From Escherichia phage vB_EcoM_KAW3E185: a DNA stretch of 64,000 nt. The translations under genes were made by a program, and so were the position numbers. Of the stretch, positions 2,520-58,354 are shown in pieces. Below the pieces are notes generated by a model. It ran no database searches. It had not been told where the DNA came from and saw only the letters and a list, made by a program, of their open reading frames with translations. Location of the stretch: sequence record MK373782.1. One strand, 5' to 3'. Position 1 is the first letter of the stretch. Each line of letters starts with the position of its first letter.

Positions 2520-3620
2520 TTACGCTGTGAAGATTTTATCCCACATCGCAACAACTGCATCTCGGTTATACTTCTTCCATACTGCTTCAGCACGTTTAAC
2601 TCGAGCTTCGTATGTGTCAGTGAATTCTAATACAGCTTTTGTGTAAAGCGCAACTACTTCTTTCTTAGGAGTAGAGGAATCAATTTCTACACGCACAGTA
2701 TCTGGGTCGTATTCAAATGTCGCATGAGGATAATCCTTAAAAACTAACTGGATTACAGGGACACCTTTAGAGATGGCTTCAATAGAACTATTCTCTACCG
2801 TACCTGTGTCAGGACACGTATTAATAAGTGCTTTAGCTGTTTTAAGGCGTTCCATGATTTCACTGTGTGGAGCATCAATAATAACAGGATATTTAGCCGG
2901 TGGTGCCCATTTGCTTGGACAGTATCCTACACCATTTTCGCCTAGTGCTTTAATCGCTTCAAGAGCAACATCAGTACGACGCATTTTAGTGTCATAACGT
3001 TGTGCACTAATAATCAGATCAGTCGCCGGAAGAACTTCAGGTTTCTCATTCAAACAAATAACCGGATAATCTTCGGTTTCAAACAACGGATTTGCTCGCC
3101 AATAATCATAATCAATTTTGTCAGTCAGACCTGAAGTCATATAACAATATTTGCGTTCAAATTCACGGAAGGCTTTAGTAGGAGCATAACTCTTACCACC
3201 GTTCTTACGAATTTGAATAGTCTGGTCCCAAATTTGAACAATGCCACGAGATACTGGTTCAAATGGTGTTGCCATAAAATTCTTATGAACTTTAGAGAGA
3301 CCTGCGTCTTTAATTGCCTGAACGGTTAGTTTAGTCGGTTCCATAGTAACAACAAAATCGTATTCATGGATGCCGGCTAGTTCAACAATCTTACGAGCCA
3401 TAGTATAACTCATACCTAGACTGAATTTAGTCAGATGACCAACAGGATGATGATTAACCTTCCAATCACCAAATGTGTCATTATCAAAACCGATATAATC
3501 AATATCGGCACCGATGGACACAAGATATTTCAACACATTTAAATGTACTGCTTCAAGACCACCTTGTACACGTTCTGGGTTAAATGGGACTGCACGAGAT
3601 GGGATAAACATAACTTTCAT
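2520..3620 (-). CDS. putative GT-B fold (GT4-like) glycosyltransferase, 366 aa
   Basis: N-terminal MKVMFIPSRAVPF...GGLEAVHLNVLKYL and C-terminal ...TGTVENSSIEAISKGVPVI resemble GT4 donor-binding motifs; occupies the slot where T4 has gene 60/mobA. Confidence 0.5.
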   Translation of the reverse strand: MKVMFIPSRAVPFNPERVQGGLEAVHLNVLKYLVSIGADIDYIGFDNDTFGDWKVNHHPVGHLTKFSLGMSYTMARKIVELAGIHEYDFVVTMEPTKLTVQAIKDAGLSKVHKNFMATPFEPVSRGIVQIWDQTIQIRKNGGKSYAPTKAFREFERKYCYMTSGLTDKIDYDYWRANPLFETEDYPVICLNEKPEVLPATDLIISAQRYDTKMRRTDVALEAIKALGENGVGYCPSKWAPPAKYPVIIDAPHSEIMERLKTAKALINTCPDTGTVENSSIEAISKGVPVIQLVFKDYPHATFEYDPDTVRVEIDSSTPKKEVVALYTKAVLEFTDTYEARVKRAEAVWKKYNRDAVVAMWDKIFTA

Positions 3621-5546: not shown

Positions 5547-5966
5547 TTTAAATTTAATTTTCTGAAGTGCATCAATTGCAGCCAAACGCCCTTGTTCACT
5601 TTTAACTGTAATGACCACATCACCTGATACGATCACCGAACCATCAACAAATTCTATAGAGCCTTTTTTGAAATCTACGGCTGTATCTGATTCAGGAACT
5701 TCTTCAAAGAATTTAAATTCTGCACCGTAAATTAGAATATCACCTTGCATACTAATGATTGTACGTCCAGGTCCATCGGTTTCAGCGGCAATCATTGAAA
5801 CACCATAACCAATCATCTCTTCTACAATAAAATCTCTTGATAATAAAACTGTATGCAGAGTAGTGTTAAGACGTTTACCAGTCGTATTAAGAATTCTCAA
5901 GAAATTATCTTCCTGTCCTTTAATAATACGATATTTCTTACCAACTTCAAAACCTTTAAAAGCCAT
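5544..5966 (-). CDS. hypothetical protein (140 aa)
   Basis: ORF on gene strand between gene 39 and the zinc-ribbon ORF; no recognisable motif. Confidence 0.5.
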   Translation of the reverse strand: MAFKGFEVGKKYRIIKGQEDNFLRILNTTGKRLNTTLHTVLLSRDFIVEEMIGYGVSMIAAETDGPGRTIISMQGDILIYGAEFKFFEEVPESDTAVDFKKGSIEFVDGSVIVSGDVVITVKSEQGRLAAIDALQKIKFK

Positions 5967-5968
5967 AA

Positions 5969-6148
5969 TTAACCCTTCTTAAGTAAGTCGTAAAAACCAC
6001 CGTTCACATGTTTAGGAGCAGAAACCCGACGAGTAGACAGACGATGACATTCAGGGCAAACATCGTTTTCTCGTTCAGAAATCCTTTTAATTTTTTCATA
6101 TTCATGGCCACAATCTTCAGATTGGCATTTATAGTCGTATAATGGCAT
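5969..6148 (-). CDS. FmdB-like zinc-ribbon protein (59 aa, CxxC...CxxC)
   Basis: Not in ORF track (under 60 aa); hand translation gives MPLYDYKCQSEDCGHEYEKIKRISERENDVCPECHRLSTRRVSAPKHVNGGFYDLLKKG; fills a 180-nt gap. Confidence 0.45.
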   Translation of the reverse strand: MPLYDYKCQSEDCGHEYEKIKRISERENDVCPECHRLSTRRVSAPKHVNGGFYDLLKKG

Positions 6149-6150
6149 TA

Positions 6151-6561
6151 TTATTCCTTAAAATGTGCTTTCAACATTTGATACAAAGACCATGCCTGGT
6201 CGTTATTTTTGATAGTAATCGTCATCACCGGAAATTCAGACAATTCGTCAAGTTCACCAGAATCTTGCTCTTCAGACTCTTGATATGGATTTCCAACTTC
6301 GTCAAAGAACTCTGCTTCATTCGTGGAGAGCCAGATAAAGTTTTCATCAAGGATATCACCGCCTGTTGCGTATCCAACCATGCCAGTAGATGTCACAATT
6401 TTAGTAGGACGCCCAAGATGGTCAACATCTAATACTTTAAATGGTTCCATGCCAAGACGTCGTGCGTAAATCCCATTATCAGTATGGTCTTTAATAAACT
6501 CTTCTTGGGCACGTTTATCTTTAAATTGGTACCATGAGTTAACGCGGAATTTATTAGCCAT
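6151..6561 (-). CDS. hypothetical protein (about 136 aa)
   Basis: Track ORF 6151-6579; start chosen at the ATG (MANKF...) that overlaps the upstream stop in a TAATG arrangement. Confidence 0.5.
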
Positions 6562-6788
6562 TAGTAAGTTTCCTTCCAATAAGTTGTACCGTTTTCAGTG
6601 ATTTCACGGAAGATACCATAGATAGGCATTTCATCACCGAGTTTTTCGTAAACGTAAACCACTTCAGTGTAGCATAAAAATTCAGTCCAGTTTTTCTGTA
6701 CAACAACTAAATCAGGATTAAACAGAACATCTTCAAACTCATCGATGTTTGAATCAGTAGTTACGTTTTTAATGATTTGACGTTTCAT
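6561..6788 (-). CDS. hypothetical protein (about 75 aa)
   Basis: Track ORF 6561-6833; start chosen at Met16 (MKRQ...), which has a GAGGAG Shine-Dalgarno. Confidence 0.45.
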
Positions 6789-44856: not shown

Positions 44857-45072
44857 TTAAGCCTTTTTATCAAGAACAGAATTCAGTTTATTAGTAATTT
44901 TGTCCAAACGTTCATTGAATTCGCTGGAGGATAAACCCTTTTCTGGAGAAATTAAACTAATCACGAAAAATACACCAGTAAAAGGAATAAGAAAAATAGC
45001 TCCAACTGCCATAAACAGAAAGAATGTTACAGTTGTAAGAAAATCAGCTAAACCTTTACGAAATTTATACAT
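44857..45072 (-). CDS. small membrane protein (71 aa)
   Basis: Hydrophobic segments FFLFMAVGAIFLIPFTGVFFVISLI. Confidence 0.45.
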   Translation of the reverse strand: MYKFRKGLADFLTTVTFFLFMAVGAIFLIPFTGVFFVISLISPEKGLSSSEFNERLDKITNKLNSVLDKKA

Positions 45073-45084
45073 TTACATTTACCT

Positions 45085-45198
45085 TTAATTGATTAACCAA
45101 GCATTGATAATCATTAAACTATATTGCGAATAAAATTCTGGACCAAAACGAAAAATCATATCATTTATAGTATCCATAATGTAATTCAATTTAATCAT
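45085..45198 (-). CDS. small hypothetical protein (about 37 aa)
   Basis: Track ORF 45085-45309 overlaps nrdG; start chosen at the Met overlapping the nrdG stop; uncertain. Confidence 0.25.
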   Translation of the reverse strand: MIKLNYIMDTINDMIFRFGPEFYSQYSLMIINAWLIN

Positions 45199-45661
45199 GT
45201 TTCCACACCCCATCGGTATTTGACCAAAGTCGCTGATTATCTGATCCTCGCCACAGCTTTTTAGTCGGAAGATTTTTCTCATACTTCCCATCAATAATAA
45301 CATCAACATATTTAAGCATTTCTAGTTGTTTAATATCTTCAAACTTATATCCTGTCCACAACCAAATGCTTTTATTGGGATAAAGATTTTTTACTGTTTG
45401 AGCAATGCGATGAATAACATCTCGGTTATCAGGATAGAGAGGGTCTCCTCCGGTTATAGTTAATCCTTCTATATAATCATTATTCAAACATTCAATCAAT
45501 TGTTCTAGTGTCTCTCCAGTGAATGGAATACCATTTCTAGCATTCCATGTTGATTTATTATAACACCCTTCACATTTATGCAAACAACCTGTAACGAAAA
45601 GAACGACCCTGCATCCAGGGCCATTCACAAAGCAGCACGGGTATATTCTGTCATAATTCAT
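45191..45661 (-). CDS. nrdG: anaerobic ribonucleotide reductase activating protein NrdG (radical SAM)
   Basis: CxxxCxxC cluster motif CLHKCEGC; start chosen at Met8 because the first listed codon is not ATG. Confidence 0.8.
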   Translation of the reverse strand: MNYDRIYPCCFVNGPGCRVVLFVTGCLHKCEGCYNKSTWNARNGIPFTGETLEQLIECLNNDYIEGLTITGGDPLYPDNRDVIHRIAQTVKNLYPNKSIWLWTGYKFEDIKQLEMLKYVDVIIDGKYEKNLPTKKLWRGSDNQRLWSNTDGVWKHD

Positions 45662-46488
45662 AATAATATCCAATTTTTCCAAGCTTCATCAGTAGAATTA
45701 CAGCGTTTTAGTATAAGATGTCTAGAAACTTTTATGGCATTTGAGCACTTTTTAATTGAATCATACTTAATACCGTCAACTGAAACGGTTTTGCTAGTTG
45801 GAGAAATTTTTCCATACATTGGATTTTTTGAACCAACTTGAAGTCCTTTTAAAGCTTTTGAAAGCTTTTGTCTAGATTCCAATGACATGGGAGAATTCTT
45901 TTTACCTTCAATAATTCGCTTGCGATGAAGTTCGCGTTCTTCTTCACTCAAAGAATTGTAATATTTTTTAACACCGTTTGATATAGATAATTTATCTTTC
46001 TCAGACCGCTCTCCAGCTAATTTACTTCTAACATCTTTTCGCTTCATAGCTATGCTTACGGCTTTATTTAAATTTGCTTGATGCTCTGGCGTACGTTTAT
46101 ATTTCTTTAAAGCACGTGAAATAGCTATTTTAGTTTCTTCTGTTCTCTTTTTACCTTTATTTGCTAAACTATTTTTGCGGCGATGTTCAAGTGTCTGTTC
46201 ATAGGCAGTTCCACCTTTTCCACCAGGTTTAATATTATATGTATTTTCTTTTAGACAATACTCTTCGGTTACGAGTTCAGCTTCTTTATCATACATTTGC
46301 TTTTCATTATCAAAAACATATAAAATTTCTTTATAAAAATTTTTTCTACCATATTTTAATAAAGCAGCACGAATCAATGTTCCTGATCCCATATAACCGT
46401 CATTTATGTTATCGGTGCTATGCGCACCGATATATTCCTTTGAATTAATTATATTTGTTATTTTATAAATTATATAATACCTATGCAT
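45658..46488 (-). CDS. free-standing GIY-YIG homing endonuclease (Seg/Mob-like), 276 aa
   Basis: N-terminal YIIYKITN...KEYIGAHS GIY-YIG motif; repeated basic helix (NUMOD-like) modules; stop overlaps the nrdG start. Confidence 0.7.
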   Translation of the reverse strand: MHRYYIIYKITNIINSKEYIGAHSTDNINDGYMGSGTLIRAALLKYGRKNFYKEILYVFDNEKQMYDKEAELVTEEYCLKENTYNIKPGGKGGTAYEQTLEHRRKNSLANKGKKRTEETKIAISRALKKYKRTPEHQANLNKAVSIAMKRKDVRSKLAGERSEKDKLSISNGVKKYYNSLSEEERELHRKRIIEGKKNSPMSLESRQKLSKALKGLQVGSKNPMYGKISPTSKTVSVDGIKYDSIKKCSNAIKVSRHLILKRCNSTDEAWKNWILL

Positions 46489-47760
46489 GTTTTACTCGTT
46501 TTACCATTTCTTTCATTTTACCTAAATTCCATGGGACAACGCTAGGAGTTCCAAGATATCCGCATGTTCTTCTTATGGTATTCATCTTTTTAGGATCAGT
46601 TTCTCCACAAATAGAACAAACAAATCCGTTTTCAGTAGGAGTCATTTCATGGGTACTTCCACATGTAAAACATTTATCCACTGGCATATTAACACCAAAA
46701 TAATCTAAATGTTGTGCAGCATAATCCCAGACGGCCTCAAGCCCCTTTAAATTGTTTTTCATATCTGGAAGTTCAACATAAGAAATGTGACCGCCTGTCG
46801 CAATGAAATGATATGGGGCTTCGCGAGAAATCTTTTCAAACGGAGTGATATTTTCTTCTACTGAAACATGGAAACTGTTAGTGTACCATCCTTTATCGGT
46901 AACATCTTTTACACTTCCATATTTTTCAGTATCAAGTTTACAGAAGCGATAGCAAAGGTTTTCAGCAGGAGTAGAATACAAGCTAAAAGCAAAACCGGTT
47001 CTTTCGGTCCACTGCTTAAGACGAGCATTCATTTTAGTTAAAATTTCTTGTCCAATATCACGACCGACAAGAATATTCAATTCGTGAATACCGATGTATC
47101 CTAGGGACACTGAACTTCTACCGTTTTTAAATAACTCAATTATATCATCATCAGGTTTAAGACGGACCCCAAATGCACCTTCTTGGTAAAGAATAGGAGC
47201 AACAGTAGCTTTAACTCCTTTTAAGGAACTAATTCTACACATCAAGGCTTCAAAGCACAGATCCATTCGTTCATTAAATAACTCAACAAATTTCTGTTCA
47301 TTGAACTGTGTTCCAATATAAGAATCTAACGCGATGCGAGGAAGATTCAGTGTTACAACGCCAAGATTATTACGTCCATCAAGAATTTCATTACCAGTCG
47401 AATCTTTCCATACACTCAAGAAACTACGGCAGCCCATTGGAGAAACAGGAACTGAAGAACCGGTAATAGCTTTATTATTCTTAACCGAAATAATGTCAGG
47501 ATACATTCTTTTGCTTGCACATTCTAACGCAAGTTGTTTAATATCATAGTTCGGATCATCTTTATAAAGATTAACACCTTCTTCAACAAACATAACAAGT
47601 TTAGGAAAAATAGGAGTTATTCCATCACGACCAAGACCTTTAATGCGGTTTTTAAGAATTGCCTTCTGAATCATTCGTTCAGTCCAGTCAGTTCCCGTAC
47701 CAAATGTAATTGTTACAAAAGGCGTTTGTCCGTTTGAACTAAAGAGAGTATTTACTTCAT
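46481..47760 (-). CDS. nrdD: anaerobic ribonucleoside-triphosphate reductase NrdD, exon 2
   Basis: C-terminal glycyl-radical motif RRTCGYLG and Cys cluster CFTCGS...CSICG; exon boundary placed so that the spliced product is 605 aa. Confidence 0.8.
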
Positions 47761-48805
47761 CATTATATTCAGCATGAGTCGCAAATTCATGCTCGTTTAT
47801 ATGAAACAACAAAATTTGGATAGTCCATAGATATGCAACGTTCTTTTATAGTGCTAGGATGAAAATTTAGCGCTTTAGCTGCTTCTATATAAGACGTATA
47901 CTTAATACCGTCAACAACCACATATTCAGGAACTTTATGAATAGTAGTCTTAATACTCAAAACAAGAGGATGAGTTTCGACTTCACTTTCAGTGCAATTT
48001 AAATATTCCGCTGCTTTTTTAAAACTTCTAAAAGTTTTATTTTTAAGCTTTATCGATACTTGTTTTTTACTTTTTCGACTATTGATATTATTTTGCACAT
48101 GTTCCTTAGATCTTCCGTTTTTAGCATAATATTCAGCTACAGAAGATTTTATATTGTTTTTATGAGATTCGGATAACACTTTACCCTTATGAGCATCTCT
48201 TAATTTTTGAATATGTTCTTCAGTATCCGGATGCTTATAAAACTTTTTACCGCCTATGGATTTATTTAAACATTTTTTGCTATAAAAATATTTACGTATG
48301 ACCTCTTCTTCATGTTTTAATGCATCTTTATAACTATCAAATGTTTTTAAAATTATCCATTTAGTAGGTGTATCAGTTTTTAAGCGTTCATTTATATACT
48401 TAGATGACGTTGTGTAAGTTTTCCAGTTTGTGGGCTTATTTTTAATTGTTCTAAATTTTTTATAACCGATATAAATGTCGCCATTAGAAAACTTAACTAA
48501 GTATGTAAATGCGTCTTTATCTTTTATTTTAGTACAACGTCTTTTTATCCATTTCATTGTTTCACCTCGTATTCATAAGATAATCTTATTTATACAAGAT
48601 GACTGCTGCATGTCGCCATGCAGATTAGACTATATCTTCATCTTTCGATGCCGGCCGTTTCGAATAGCATTAGCTTCTATTCTACACCGCTACATTCATC
48701 ACGGTTAGTCGTTAGGCATTTAGTTCAAAAGAACATTTAGCACGGGATTGTCTACTAGAGAGGTTCCCCGTTTAGACCGGTTTTACATGAGCCTGAATTA
48801 AATTA
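47761..48805 (-). mobile_element. group I intron in nrdD (about 1045 nt) carrying a homing-endonuclease ORF
   Basis: nrdD reading frame is interrupted; exon 1 ends in U and the intron ends in G; GC-rich conserved core CUAAACGGGGAACCUCUCUAGUAGACAAUCCCGUGCUAAAU; splicing restores ...AFQAYE-YEVNTLF... Confidence 0.65.
47787..48557 (-). CDS. intron-encoded GIY-YIG homing endonuclease (I-TevII-like), 256 aa
   Basis: FTYLVKFSNGDIYIGYKKF GIY-YIG motif; located entirely within the nrdD intron. Confidence 0.7.
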   Translation of the reverse strand: MKWIKRRCTKIKDKDAFTYLVKFSNGDIYIGYKKFRTIKNKPTNWKTYTTSSKYINERLKTDTPTKWIILKTFDSYKDALKHEEEVIRKYFYSKKCLNKSIGGKKFYKHPDTEEHIQKLRDAHKGKVLSESHKNNIKSSVAEYYAKNGRSKEHVQNNINSRKSKKQVSIKLKNKTFRSFKKAAEYLNCTESEVETHPLVLSIKTTIHKVPEYVVVDGIKYTSYIEAAKALNFHPSTIKERCISMDYPNFVVSYKRA

Positions 48806-49343
48806 ACTCATACGCCTGGAATGCGTCATAGACATCTTTTTCTGTTTTAGATTGAGCATAATTCAACGCATCAGCGATTTGCCATTTTTCTGCATCCTCA
48901 ATATGTTTTGCATAGGTGCGTTTAACATAAGGAGAAAGTACTTTATCTACATTAGCAAAAGTCGTTCCGCCGTATTGATGGGAAGCAACTTGTGCAGTAA
49001 TTTGTGCCATAATTGCAGTAGCAACACCAATAGATTTAGGCGTTTCAATTTGAGCATTGCCTAATTTAAATCCATTCTCAAGCATCCCCTTTAAATCGAC
49101 TAAACAGCAATTGGTAAACGGAAGAGCAGGAGAATAATCAATATCATGCATGTGAATGATTCCGCGTTCATGCGCATTCATAATAAAAGACGGGACCATA
49201 TTTTTGGCAATGTGTTTAGACACAATACCAGCCATAAGGTCCCGTTGAGTTGGAAAAACACGAGAATCTTTATTAGCATTCTCGTTCAAAAGATCTTTAT
49301 TAGTTTTATAAATTAATCCTTCAATTTCTTTTTCAATTTTCAT
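48806..49343 (-). CDS. nrdD: anaerobic ribonucleoside-triphosphate reductase NrdD, exon 1
   Basis: N-terminal NrdD sequence MKIEKEIEGLIYKTNKDLL...; the track ORF runs 3 codons into the intron before a stop. Confidence 0.8.
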
Positions 49344-49813
49344 TTTAAACTCTTTCTAAGCTGCTTTTTGAATGAAGCTATTAATTGTGTTTTAGTATCG
49401 GATTCATTATATTCAAATCCTCTTTGAAGCATCTCGGACATCATTTCCTCTTTACCTAGTCTTGAGAACTCTTTAGTTTTGTCTGGAACAAAATTAGGAT
49501 GGATATTATTATCAGAATAATCTTGTTTCAAATAAGCAAGAAGAGATTCAAGCCATTCGAGGTAATCAACGTTTTGACCTTTAAGACCAGAACGGTTGAA
49601 CTTATGCTTCATTTGACCTTCTGCTGTGTTGCACAGATTACAGAGTAACCCACGAACTCTACCGGCTTTTGGCCCGTTTAATTCGTGGTCGTGGTCAAGA
49701 TGGTTACCTTGAACATCAGGGTCTAATTCACGGTGGCAAATAGGACACTTACCGTTCTGTGCATCATAAAATTTTTGTTTTTCTTCTTTATATTTTGCGC
49801 CTGATAATAACAT
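49340..49813 (-). CDS. 49: endonuclease VII (Holliday junction resolvase) gp49, 157 aa
   Basis: Zinc-binding CPICHRE...HLDHDHELNG...CNLCN matches T4 endo VII as I recall it. Confidence 0.9.
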   Translation of the reverse strand: MLLSGAKYKEEKQKFYDAQNGKCPICHRELDPDVQGNHLDHDHELNGPKAGRVRGLLCNLCNTAEGQMKHKFNRSGLKGQNVDYLEWLESLLAYLKQDYSDNNIHPNFVPDKTKEFSRLGKEEMMSEMLQRGFEYNESDTKTQLIASFKKQLRKSLK

Positions 49814-55573: not shown

Positions 55574-55861
55574 CTAAAAGAAACTTTTTTCGGTATTTTT
55601 TCCACTGAACCAAACAGACTTCGGGATTTTTTGTAATTTTTCAGATTTAAGTTTCTCTTCCTGTTCTTTCTTATATACACCCTTGTCGTACTGGAGCACC
55701 TCTATGGCATTCTTTTGCAAACGATCTAAGGTAATTAAGGCTTTAGTTTTTCCTTTCAAGGAAGAGTCCTGGCGAACCTCCTCGCTATATTGCATTGTAG
55801 AACTAACCATACGATGAGCATACAGTTCTACTGCGGCTTTAATTTTTTGCATAAAATCCAT
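55574..55861 (-). CDS. hypothetical protein (95 aa)
   Basis: ORF on gene strand with AGAGGA Shine-Dalgarno. Confidence 0.45.
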   Translation of the reverse strand: MDFMQKIKAAVELYAHRMVSSTMQYSEEVRQDSSLKGKTKALITLDRLQKNAIEVLQYDKGVYKKEQEEKLKSEKLQKIPKSVWFSGKNTEKSFF

Positions 55862-56000: not shown

Positions 56001-56468
56001 TTATTTCAGTAAAGTAACTTCCGAGATTTCTTCCCAACCATCTTTATCAGTTGAAATAAAATCTGCTACATAAAGAGCCGTACGTAATGATACATTGCGA
56101 AGACGAGATACGTTAGCCTTCATCCAGGACAATGCTTTATACGTTTCTGCATCAGTCAGACCACGTTTCTGCATCATGTCAGTAGATAATATTACATCTT
56201 CAACTCGAACCATAATCTCTTCATTAGAGTGTACTCCAAGGTCGAGATACACTGAACGAGATACTAAAGCTTGAAGGTGTGGAGCAAGTTTAGAACCGCG
56301 TTCTAACTCTTTATCGATATCAACGTTTGTAATGAAAACGATAGTACCTTCAAACTCAAATTCTTTATCAATACCCTTATCCTCGAGATAAGATGACGCA
56401 GTGCTCCAACAAACTTTGCGTTTATCGCCGGTATCTAATGCTGCTTTAAGAAGGTTCAAGATGTCCAT
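56001..56468 (-). CDS. AAA+-like ATPase C-terminal fragment (155 aa); gene possibly frameshifted
   Basis: Sensor-1-like TIVFITNVD and Arg-finger-like LVSRSVYL; in-frame upstream codons continue ...LLIDDVDVFSD (Walker B-like) with no start codon. Confidence 0.4.
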   Translation of the reverse strand: MDILNLLKAALDTGDKRKVCWSTASSYLEDKGIDKEFEFEGTIVFITNVDIDKELERGSKLAPHLQALVSRSVYLDLGVHSNEEIMVRVEDVILSTDMMQKRGLTDAETYKALSWMKANVSRLRNVSLRTALYVADFISTDKDGWEEISEVTLLK

Positions 56469-56694
56469 ATCTGAGAATACGTCAACGTCGTCGATTAAGA
56501 GAACGCTGTCTGCATCACGGTTGAGCCAAAGTTGTTCGTAAAGGCCAATACCGGAGATTTTACCATACTCGCTTCAATAAGATTCACTATGCCGTTTACC
56601 ATGTTATAGGTAAACATCGGATAATTGTATTGTACTACAACATAAGCGATAAGCAAAAGTTTCATTTTGTTCTCCGTTCGTTTTGATAGGACTA

Positions 56695-56723
56695 CTATAA
56701 TATAGTCCTACCAAGATGTAAAC
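56695..56723 (-). promoter_or_regulatory. early promoter (-35 GTTTAC) with GGACTA...TAGTCC near-palindrome
   Basis: Upstream of the 56-codon ORF starting about 56663; coordinates approximate. Confidence 0.35.
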
Positions 56724-57769: not shown

Positions 57770-57777
57770 TATTTATA
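57770..57777 (-). promoter_or_regulatory. T4-type late promoter TATAAATA
   Basis: Exact TATAAATA on minus strand overlapping the tk stop, about 25 nt upstream of ORF 57533-57745. Confidence 0.5.
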
Positions 57778-58354
57778 ACAACCCTGTCAAATCATTCCAA
57801 TGCTTCCGGCATAATGACACGTATCTATCGGTATCACCAATTTCAATTTGACTGCCATCTGTAATTGGAAGTCCGTCTTCCGTGACTCTAGCTACCATTG
57901 TGGCCTTTTTACCACAATGACAGACACCTTTAAGTTCAACAAGCTTATCGGCAATAGCCATTAATGCTTGAGAACCTTCAAATAGATTACCTTTAAAATC
58001 TGTTCGTAGTCCATATGCCATTACCGGCACATTGTACACGTCAACAATACGACTAAGTTGATACACCTTTTCAGTAGTTAAGAACTGAGCTTCGTCAACA
58101 AATACGCAGTGAATATCCTTTTGTGCTGCAGCCCATTTATAAAATTCAAAGATATCCATGTCTTTTGTAATTATATTGGCGTCCTGACGAATACCAATAC
58201 GAGAGACTATTTCACCTTTTGAATCGCGAGTATCAATAGCCGGTTTAAGAACTAATACACCCATGCCACGTTCTTTATAGTTATGTGCGGCAGTAAGTAA
58301 TGAAGCAGACTTACCAGCGTTCATAGCGGCATAGGTAAAAATTAAACTAGCCAT
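57773..58354 (-). CDS. tk: thymidine kinase (193 aa)
   Basis: Walker A YAAMNAGKS, zinc ribbon CHCG...CRKH; matches T4 Tk as I recall it. Confidence 0.9.
   Translation of the reverse strand: MASLIFTYAAMNAGKSASLLTAAHNYKERGMGVLVLKPAIDTRDSKGEIVSRIGIRQDANIITKDMDIFEFYKWAAAQKDIHCVFVDEAQFLTTEKVYQLSRIVDVYNVPVMAYGLRTDFKGNLFEGSQALMAIADKLVELKGVCHCGKKATMVARVTEDGLPITDGSQIEIGDTDRYVSLCRKHWNDLTGLL

What the first reader, a model, noticed from the sequence alone, without database searches (positions are those of the whole stretch)
56001..56663. AAA+-like gene that appears frameshifted or N-terminally disrupted
The 155-aa ORF 56001-56468 has sensor-1-like and Arg-finger-like motifs. Upstream of its ATG the same frame continues for 34 codons (...SEYGKISGIGLYEQLWLNRDADSVLLIDDVDVFSD, including a Walker B-like LLIDD) with no start codon, ending at a stop. 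A separate 56-codon ORF in another frame (ATG near 56663, with GGAG Shine-Dalgarno and a promoter) overlaps this region. The pattern fits a gene broken by a frameshift (pseudogene or sequencing error) or a programmed frameshift. No Walker A was found in any frame.
Basis: seen in the sequence. Interest (0 to 1): 0.5.

Follow-up and report, generated by a model that had tools for sequence, protein, structure and literature searches.

The report
Deletion-truncated nrdC.10 ATPase gene remnant
The "broken AAA+ gene" is the back 57% of the T4-type phage gene nrdC.10, left behind when a 3-kb deletion between two 10-base repeats removed its front end and five neighbouring genes; this is an ordinary, recent gene loss, not a frameshift.

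Summary
The frameshift interpretation is wrong. The window is a Mosigvirus (RB69-like, T4-type) coliphage. Both ORFs are annotated genes of Escherichia phage vB_EcoM_KAW3E185 (QBQ78654.1 and QBQ78655.1).

Every related phage checked has a single intact 326-aa orthologue of T4 nrdC.10, an AAA+ ATPase of unknown function. The window keeps only residues 140-326. About 3.0 kb is missing: 2,997 bp relative to phage AV118 and 3,023 bp relative to NicPhage.

The junction lies inside a 10-bp direct repeat, ATGGTAAAAT (window 56566-56557), that is present at both parental sites in all relatives checked. The deletion removed:
- the Walker A half of nrdC.10;
- nrdC.11;
- a mobD.1-like gene;
- a membrane protein gene;
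- two small ORFs.

It also replaced the stop codon of a 36-aa ORF. That ORF now runs out of frame into nrdC.10 DNA, which creates the "separate 56-codon ORF".

No other public phage, viral, metagenome or genome sequence searched carries this junction. The remnant differs from intact relatives only by synonymous changes, so the loss is recent. It is most likely an untranslated or inactive remnant. Interest is low.

The parts
56001..56564 (-). Remnant of the nrdC.10 orthologue: codons G140-K326 plus the stop codon. It holds Walker B, sensor 1 and the helical lid. Walker A and the N-terminal beta domain are missing.
   Evidence: It matches phrog_1250 at profile positions 141-327 of 327 (E = 1.3e-104). 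It is collinear with AV118 L001 6001-6566, the end of a 326-aa gene. T4 nrdC.10 is 77.8% identical to that intact orthologue.
56001..56468 (-). The 155-aa ORF as annotated (QBQ78654.1, KAW3E185_00099), equal to residues M172-K326. It starts at an internal Met with no Shine-Dalgarno sequence.
   Evidence: The upstream sequence GTTGACGTATTCTCAGAT has no purine-rich SD.
56557..56566 (-). Deletion junction: a single copy of the 10-bp direct repeat ATGGTAAAAT.
   Evidence: The two BLAST segments against AV118 and NicPhage overlap by exactly these 10 bases. Both parental copies are present in AV118, NicPhage, FL18, TH58, ST0 and O157tp3. Random junctions show 10 bp or more of microhomology at a frequency of 2.6e-5.
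56495..56665 (-). 56-aa fusion ORF (QBQ78655.1, KAW3E185_00100). Codons 1-36 (56665-56558) are the complete small gene. Its TGA stop is replaced by TCT, and 20 extra codons are read out of frame from nrdC.10 DNA up to TAA 56497-56495.
   Evidence: phrog_3515 matches residues 1-34. All 22 other members of its 90% cluster are 36 or 40 aa.
56694..56722 (-). Early-promoter-like site TTTACA-17-TATAGT. It is followed by the leader and GGAG (56675-56672) of the small ORF. It is now the nearest promoter upstream of the remnant.
   Evidence: The cassette is conserved at other early genes.
56487..56492 (-). Walker B aspartates D164 and D165 (LLIDD). They are in the remnant's frame but upstream of its only start codon.
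   Evidence: These columns are invariant in 39 homologues. Coordinates were read.
56325..56327 (-). Sensor-1 asparagine N219 (FITN), at the end of core strand 213-218.
   Evidence: Invariant column. Secondary structure is from the model.
55574..55861 (-). Intact downstream neighbour: a 95-aa ORF at the position that nrdC.9 occupies in T4. It shows that the right side of the locus is undisturbed.
   Evidence: Collinear with AV118 L001 6706-6993.

Best explanation
A spontaneous deletion of about 3.0 kb truncated the gene. It most likely arose by replication slippage or illegitimate recombination between two copies of the 10-bp direct repeat ATGGTAAAAT.

- The left repeat copy spans the last codons, and the first base of the stop codon, of a 36-aa early ORF.
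- The right repeat copy spans codons 139-142 (N-G-K-I) of the nrdC.10 orthologue.
- The event removed nrdC.10 codons 1-139. These encode the N-terminal beta domain, the linker helix and Walker A (GAAGIGKT).
- It also removed five whole genes: a 59-aa DUF7438 ORF, a 176-aa mobD.1/y05I-like gene, a 157-aa membrane protein gene, the 328-aa nrdC.11 RlaP-type nucleotidyltransferase gene and a 72-aa ORF.
- It fused the small ORF out of frame to nrdC.10 DNA. That fusion is the 56-codon ORF.

What remains is a non-functional remnant. It has no start codon with a ribosome-binding site, and any product started at ATG 56468 would lack both Walker A and Walker B. The phage is viable without these accessory genes.

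Shown directly: the deletion, its end points, the repeat, the uniqueness of the junction and the intactness of the remnant's codons. Inferred: the slippage or recombination mechanism and the lack of expression or function.
For: - **Collinearity.** Window 59500-56557 aligns with AV118 L001 70-3013, and window 56566-54000 with L001 6001-8567, both at 98.4% identity with a 10-bp overlap. The same pattern holds against NicPhage at 99-99.6% identity.
- **Junction and parental sequences.** The repeat ATGGTAAAAT is visible at the junction and at both parental sites.
- **Intact orthologue.** Relatives carry a 326-aa gene with Walker A GAAGIGKT and Walker B LLIDD. The window fragment matches only positions 141-327 of phrog_1250, and the 56-aa ORF matches phrog_3515 over its first 34 residues.
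- **Relatives keep the missing DNA.** In the 14 Mosigvirus rows shown by a spread listing, the record span exceeds the covered part of a 7-kb window query by 2.8-3.3 kb. In all, 149 records hold at least 80% of the missing segment. tblastn finds the orthologue in 1,311 phage records, 1,200 of them covering at least 80% of it.
- **The junction is unique.** No phage record spans it; the best coverage of a 901-nt query across it is 83%. There are 0 exact matches in viral, metagenome or genome contigs. The 56-aa length is unique in its protein cluster.
- **The loss is recent.** All 16 variable sites between the remnant and six intact relatives leave the window's protein identical to the majority allele. 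Against AV118 and NicPhage, 6 of 6 and 8 of 8 differences are synonymous. Only one window allele is private, and it is synonymous.
- **The microhomology is non-random.** The simulated probability of 10 bp or more at a random junction is 2.6e-5.
- **Dispensability is plausible.** Viable T4 mutants that lost nrdC.11-mobD.3 have been reported (PMC9825161).
Against: - Without reads, I cannot exclude that the junction is an assembly artefact or a minority variant in the stock.
- The missing DNA could in principle sit elsewhere in the 170-kb genome, outside the 64-kb window. That was not testable here.
- Lack of translation of the remnant is inferred only from the absence of an SD and of alternative starts. 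Ribosomes finishing the 56-codon ORF stop 26 nt upstream of ATG 56468 and could reinitiate there.
- Full preservation of the remnant's codons also fits continued selection, although recency explains it more simply.
Confidence: 0.92

Rival explanations
1. The gene is broken by a small frameshift, either a real 1-2 nt indel or a homopolymer sequencing error. On this view the 56-codon ORF is the displaced N-terminus of the ATPase.
For: Two overlapping ORFs lie in different frames, and the downstream frame stays open upstream of its ATG.
Against: - The 56-codon ORF's first 36 codons belong to an unrelated, conserved 36-aa gene.
- Its remaining 20 codons are simply nrdC.10 DNA read out of frame.
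- No frame of the window encodes nrdC.10 residues 1-139.
- Relatives have about 3 kb and five genes between the two ORFs.
Confidence: 0.01
2. A programmed -1 ribosomal frameshift joins the 56-codon ORF to the 155-aa frame and makes a fused product.
For: The remnant's frame is -1 relative to the 56-codon ORF, and the two overlap by about 75 nt.
Against: - The overlap exists in only one known genome and was created by a recent deletion, so it cannot be an evolved recoding signal.
- Reading the overlap in the zero frame (ATG GTA AAA TCT CCG GTA TTG GCC TTT ACG AAC AAC TTT GGC ...) shows no canonical X XXY YYZ slippery heptamer.
Confidence: 0.005
3. The junction is an assembly or scaffolding artefact, or reflects a deletion subpopulation, and the real phage carries the intact 3-kb segment.
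For: - Only one public genome has the junction.
- A different apparent 'split nrdC.10', on ENA scaffold L009, proved to be a 100-N scaffold gap with duplicated flanks. Such artefacts therefore do occur.
Against: - The window has no Ns at the junction, and the join is a clean 10-bp microhomology. That is shorter than usual assembler k-mers and is the classical signature of real deletions.
- Both flanks continue collinearly for kilobases.
- This genomic neighbourhood can be lost in viable T4 mutants.
Confidence: 0.04
4. The short form is ancestral, and the relatives gained the 3-kb block by insertion.
For: T4-type hyperplastic regions do gain modules, and promoter cassettes that could mediate this are present.
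Against: - The break falls in the middle of a folded AAA+ core, between strand 2 and the following helix.
- The full-length gene is conserved from Escherichia to Vibrio, Aeromonas and Acinetobacter phages, in 1,200 records.
- The small ORF has lost its stop codon only here.
Confidence: 0.005
5. The truncated C-terminal fragment (M172-K326: sensor 1 plus lid) is still made, by termination-reinitiation after the 56-codon ORF. On this view it keeps some activity, for example as a regulator or a dominant-negative partner.
For: - TAA 56497-56495 lies 26 nt upstream of ATG 56468, under an early promoter.
- The remnant has no missense or nonsense change.
Against: - There is no SD before the ATG.
- The fragment would lack strands 1-3 of the ATPase core, so stable folding is doubtful.
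- The intact codons are explained by the deletion being recent.
- No other genome carries such a form.
Confidence: 0.03

Closest known systems
T4 nrdC.10 (NP_049708.1) and RB69 nrdC.10: a conserved T4-type phage AAA+ ATPase of unknown function (phrog_1250)
   Same: The remnant is orthologous over residues 140-326. It is 100% identical in protein to AV118 over that span, and T4 nrdC.10 is 77.8% identical to the AV118 protein. It has the same downstream neighbours and the same Walker B, sensor 1 and lid.
   Different: It lacks the first 139 residues: the beta domain, the linker helix and Walker A. It also lacks its own translation start. Its upstream neighbours, nrdC.11 and the mobD.1-like gene, are gone.
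Spontaneous deletions between short direct repeats in T4, as in classical rII deletion studies (my recollection of Singer and Westlye 1988, not retrieved here), and large-fragment losses in genome-reduced T4 (PMC9825161)
   Same: A kilobase-scale loss of accessory early genes with end points in a short perfect direct repeat. T4 mutants that lost nrdC.11-mobD.3 are viable.
   Different: This is a natural isolate of a Mosigvirus. The right end point falls inside nrdC.10 and leaves an in-frame but start-less remnant.
PeSL / early-promoter cassette-mediated module shuffling in T4-type phages (PMC2839356, PMC4122927)
   Same: The locus is a hyperplastic region. Repeated promoter-leader cassettes flank, and lie inside, the deleted block.
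   Different: The deletion end points are not in the cassettes. They lie in a 10-bp coding-sequence repeat, so this mechanism does not apply.
Generic AAA+ ATPases (RuvB, RFC, ORC/Cdc6, NSF, PspF)
   Same: The intact orthologue's predicted fold matches them (Foldseek E about 1e-5, TM 0.42-0.45). It has Walker A, Walker B and sensor 1.
   Different: Sequence identity is only 11-17%. No Pfam AAA family reaches its gathering score. The protein has a distinctive N-terminal beta domain, and no subfamily could be assigned.

Membership tests
T4 NrdC.10 family (phrog_1250) | Sequence homology over the whole ~326-aa protein | tested here: not met
   Only profile positions 141-327 of 327 are matched (E = 1.3e-104). 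Residues 1-139 are absent from the window. It is a fragment of a member, not a complete member.
T4 NrdC.10 family (phrog_1250) | Conserved position between nrdC.11 (upstream) and nrdC.9/nrdC.8 (downstream) | tested here: inconclusive
   The downstream side is conserved. The upstream side was deleted, so nrdC.11 is missing.
AAA+ ATPases | Walker A P-loop, GxxxxGK[ST] | tested here: not met
   It is present as GAAGIGKT (110-117) in intact orthologues but absent from every frame of the window.
AAA+ ATPases | Walker B, hhhhDD/DE | tested here: met
   LLIDD with invariant D164 and D165 is at window 56492-56487. It lies upstream of the only start codon of the remnant.
AAA+ ATPases | Sensor-1 polar residue at the end of strand 4 | tested here: met
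   Invariant N219 follows strand 213-218.
AAA+ ATPases | Arginine finger and sensor-2 arginine | tested here: inconclusive
   R242, R295 and R300 are invariant and sit at plausible positions. Their roles cannot be assigned without an oligomer model or biochemistry.
AAA+ ATPases | Alpha-beta-alpha core followed by a helical lid domain | tested here: met
   For the intact orthologue, the AF2 model has pLDDT 90 and its best solved-structure matches are AAA+ proteins. The window remnant holds only strands 3-5 and the lid.
AAA+ ATPases | ATP hydrolysis and oligomeric assembly | not testable with these tools
   This needs biochemistry.
Programmed -1 ribosomal frameshift sites | A two-frame overlap conserved among relatives | tested here: not met
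   The overlap exists in this genome only.
Programmed -1 ribosomal frameshift sites | An X XXY YYZ slippery heptamer in the overlap | tested here: not met
   None was found on reading 56566-56495 in the zero frame.

The most novel reading that the evidence does not exclude
The loss may not be neutral.
- One possibility is that the deletion of the nrdC.10/nrdC.11 module was selected because one of these proteins triggers a defence system in the isolation host. That would make it an escape deletion.
- The other is that the start-less C-terminal fragment, or the 20-residue-extended small peptide, is expressed by termination-reinitiation and has acquired a regulatory or dominant-negative role.

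Nothing here excludes either reading, and nothing supports them beyond the preserved codons and the promoter context.
Probability: 0.05. Interest if true: 0.4.

Novelty: new member of a known kind. Interest (0 to 1): 0.1.

Why it matters
It matters little for biology at large.

- It explains two 'hypothetical protein' annotations in a public phage genome (KAW3E185_00099 and KAW3E185_00100). One is a gene remnant and the other a deletion-created fusion ORF, so both should be flagged as such.
- It is a natural experiment. A Mosigvirus grows without nrdC.10, nrdC.11, a mobD.1-like gene and three further small genes. That adds to the evidence that this widely conserved AAA+ ATPase is dispensable under laboratory conditions.
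- It gives a clean example of a microhomology-mediated deletion in a T4-type hyperplastic region.

Tried and rejected
- **Frameshift and programmed-frameshift readings.** Rejected on the alignments with relatives.
- **A second 'truncated nrdC.10' as a sign of recurrent truncation.** The candidate was P0065, 180 aa, on ENA scaffold L009. It is a 100-N scaffold gap with duplicated flanks, so it is an artefact.
- **Recombination between repeated early-promoter cassettes (PeSL-like).** Cassettes exist at window ~56735, 20750, 6858 and 55607 and inside the deleted DNA. The end points are not in them.
- **Searches for the junction elsewhere.** The viral contigs, metagenome contigs and genome contigs collections and exact-protein contig look-ups all returned nothing.
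- **Family assignment.** Pfam, NCBIfam, PADLOC and PDB sequence searches gave only sub-threshold AAA_22, AAA_16 and nSTAND hits, a weak HTH_37 hit (E = 6e-4, below the cut-off) and nothing meaningful in the PDB by sequence. No specific function can be proposed for the intact family beyond 'AAA+ ATPase'.
- **Literature.** nrdC.10 appears in one searchable paper, as a weak AAA match (PMC1524935). The supplements of PMC9825161 were not available, so I could not check whether T4 nrdC.10 itself was among the removable genes.

Full report
**What is in the sequence.**
All features lie on the minus strand.
- The 155-aa ORF spans 56468-56001.
- Its frame stays open for 35 more codons upstream (56573-56469, SEYGK...VDVFSD). 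This stretch has no ATG, GTG or TTG and is bounded by TGA at 56576-56574.
- A 56-codon ORF in the frame one base over runs from ATG 56665-56663 to TAA 56497-56495.
- That ORF is preceded by GGAG (56675-56672) and by TTTACA-17-TATAGT at 56722-56694.

**Genomic setting.**
The window is a T4-type phage of the genus Mosigvirus. The genes run tk (57773-58354), rI.1, rI and two small ORFs, then the promoter and the two ORFs in question. After these come collinear counterparts of the genes that follow nrdC.10 in AV118; the equivalent T4 order is nrdC.9, nrdC.8 and so on.

Exact-sequence look-up identifies both ORFs as adjacent annotated genes of Escherichia phage vB_EcoM_KAW3E185. The 155-aa ORF is QBQ78654.1 (KAW3E185_00099) and the 56-aa ORF is QBQ78655.1 (KAW3E185_00100); the contig is 170,187 bp. 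The phage was isolated by Korf et al. 2019 (PMC6563267). That paper says nothing about this locus.

**What the two ORFs are.**
- The open frame translated from 56570 (codon E), i.e. the 155-aa ORF plus 34 of its 35 upstream in-frame codons, matches PHROG 1250 with E = 1.3e-104. Only profile positions 141-327 of 327 are matched.
- The first 34 residues of the 56-aa ORF match a different family, PHROG 3515, a 35-position profile, with E = 3.7e-20.

In the close relative AV118 (locus L001) the corresponding genes are a 40-aa ORF (36 aa from the Met used here) at 2893-3015 and a 326-aa gene at 5586-6566. Five genes lie between them.

The 326-aa protein carries Walker A GAAGIGKT (110-117) and Walker B LLIDD (161-165). 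tblastn shows it to be the orthologue of T4 nrdC.10 (77.8% identity). It occurs in 1,311 phage records, from Escherichia to Vibrio, Aeromonas and Acinetobacter phages, and 1,200 of these cover at least 80% of it.

**The lesion.**
- BLAST of the window against AV118 gives two collinear segments. Window 59500-56557 aligns with L001 70-3013, and window 56566-54000 with L001 6001-8567, both at 98.4% identity.
- The two segments overlap by exactly ten window bases (56566-56557, ATGGTAAAAT).
- Both parental sites in AV118 carry this 10-mer. So do NicPhage, FL18, TH58, ST0 and O157 typing phage 3.
- The window therefore lacks 2,997 bp relative to AV118 and 3,023 bp relative to NicPhage, with one repeat copy left at the junction.
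- In a simulation of 2 million random 2-4-kb deletions in L001, 10 bp or more of junction microhomology occurred at a frequency of 2.6e-5.

This is the classical signature of deletion by slippage or illegitimate recombination between short direct repeats. My knowledge of that for T4 rII deletions comes from memory, not from a paper retrieved here.

**Consequences.**
- The left repeat copy covers the last three codons (M-V-K) and the T of the TGA stop of the small ORF. The right copy covers codons 139-142 (AAT GGT AAA ATC) of nrdC.10.
- The small ORF keeps all 36 codons and loses its stop. It then reads 20 further codons out of frame (SPVLAFTNNFGSTVMQTAFS). That is the '56-codon ORF'.
- nrdC.10 keeps G140-K326 (56564-56001). 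It loses the N-terminal beta domain, the linker helix and the P-loop.
- Also lost are a DUF7438 ORF, a y05I/mobD.1-like gene, a 157-aa ORF with no Pfam match (annotated 'membrane protein' in related records), the RlaP-type nucleotidyltransferase nrdC.11 and a 72-aa ORF (for the Pfam matches).
- None of these, and no nrdC.10 N-terminus, is encoded elsewhere in the 64-kb window. The best tblastn hit has E = 0.24.

**How unusual the junction is.**
- No record in the phage collection spans the junction. The best coverage of a 901-nt query across it is 83%.
- In the 14 Mosigvirus rows shown by a spread listing, the record span exceeds the covered part of a 7-kb window query by 2.8-3.3 kb.
- In all, 149 records keep at least 80% of the missing segment.
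- Exact-pattern scans of viral, metagenome and genome contig collections found no junction.
- In the 90%-identity cluster of the small protein, the 22 other members are 36 or 40 aa. Only the KAW3E185 protein is 56 aa.

**Age of the event.**
Across the 566-nt remnant, the window differs from AV118 at 6 sites and from NicPhage at 8 sites, all synonymous. Against six intact relatives, 16 sites vary. The window never carries a derived amino-acid change, and only one window allele is private, a synonymous one. The remnant has therefore not begun to decay, so the deletion is recent.

**Is the family really AAA+?**
- Pfam gives only sub-threshold AAA_22, AAA_16, AAA_14 and nSTAND hits.
- An AlphaFold2 model of the intact orthologue P0002, built with 39 homologues, has mean pLDDT 90.
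- It shows a beta-rich N-terminal domain (1-64), a long helix (77-99), an alpha-beta core (105-250) and a helical lid (253-324).
- Foldseek against the PDB returns ORC/Cdc6, RuvB, RFC, NSF/Sec18, ClpX/ClpB, PspF and FleQ. E-values are about 1e-5 and TM-scores 0.42-0.45, at 11-17% identity.
- Invariant columns include G110, G113, G115 and K116 (Walker A), D164 and D165 (Walker B), N219 (sensor 1) and R242, R295 and R300.

'AAA+-like' is supported, as is the sensor-1 reading. The Arg-finger assignment is plausible but unproven. No function is known. The one searchable paper that mentions nrdC.10 reports only a weak AAA match (PMC1524935).

**Likely state of the remnant (inferred).**
The only in-frame start is M172 (ATG 56468). 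It has no Shine-Dalgarno sequence and lies downstream of Walker B. Any product would lack strands 1-3 of the core and both Walker motifs. Ribosomes terminating at TAA 56497-56495 are 26 nt upstream and could occasionally reinitiate, so a trace of a 155-aa fragment cannot be excluded. I regard the remnant as a dead gene fragment.

The phage was isolated and propagated, so the seven affected genes are dispensable on its host. This agrees with viable T4 mutants that lost nrdC.11-mobD.3 (PMC9825161).

**Rivals.**
- A small frameshift or a sequencing error is excluded, because the upstream ORF is a different gene and 3 kb is missing.
- Programmed frameshifting is excluded, because the overlap is unique to this genome and has no slippery heptamer.
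- An 'ancestral short form' is excluded by the mid-domain break and by the breadth of intact orthologues.
- An assembly artefact cannot be excluded without reads. It is unlikely given a clean 10-bp microhomology join and no Ns. By contrast, an apparent split nrdC.10 on ENA scaffold L009 was an N-gap artefact.
- Recombination between the repeated early-promoter cassettes was considered. The end points are not in those cassettes.

**Verdict.**
This is an ordinary, recent, microhomology-mediated deletion in a hyperplastic region of a T4-type phage. It left a start-less C-terminal remnant of the nrdC.10 AAA+ ATPase gene and a fortuitous fusion ORF. The frameshift interpretation is not supported, while the 'N-terminally disrupted' alternative in the finding's title is correct. 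Interest is low.

Noticed in passing
window 46481-49343 (minus strand): The anaerobic ribonucleotide reductase gene nrdD is in two pieces. The N-part ORF ends at 48798, and the C-part is a 443-aa ORF at 46481-47812. About 1,050 bp (47758-48808) separates them and holds a 256-aa endonuclease-like ORF (47787-48557). NicPhage has an uninterrupted nrdD. An Rfam gathering scan of 45000-49500 found no group I intron. Whether this is an intron or a free-standing homing endonuclease that splits the gene is unresolved.
   Followed up: partly
window 45658-46488 (minus strand): A 276-aa ORF that looks like a GIY-YIG homing endonuclease lies between nrdG (45191-45682) and nrdD. It sits within about 880 bp that are absent from NicPhage.
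   Followed up: no
window ~56735-56655, 20750-20670, 6858-6778, 55607-55527 (minus strand); also L001 5230-5310: A repeated early promoter-leader cassette, GTTTAC...TATTATAGACCTATCAAAAC...GGAGAACAAAATGAAA, precedes several early ORFs. It shows 80-89% identity over 45-67 nt. One copy lay inside the deleted DNA. It resembles the promoter cassettes proposed to mediate module shuffling in T4-type phages.
   Followed up: partly
L009 3821-3922 (ENA scaffold MUNK22-1_SAMEA4777506 scaffold_2035): An apparently split nrdC.10, called as a 180-aa gene, is caused by a 100-N scaffold gap with 53 bp duplicated on both sides. It is an assembly artefact, not a second truncation.
   Followed up: yes
L001, L004, L005 (AV118, NicPhage, FL18 records): Many public Mosigvirus records label nrdC.1-nrdC.11 homologues as 'thioredoxin', including the AAA+ ATPase and the nucleotidyltransferase. 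This appears to be carried over from the gene name nrdC, and it is a misleading annotation.
   Followed up: no
L001 5704 and 6001 (AV118 nrdC.10): The 10-mer ATGGTAAAAT occurs twice within nrdC.10, 297 bp apart, and four times in the 13-kb locus, against about 0.05 expected by my own rough estimate from base composition (not computed with a tool). There are therefore several potential end points for repeat-mediated deletions.
   Followed up: no
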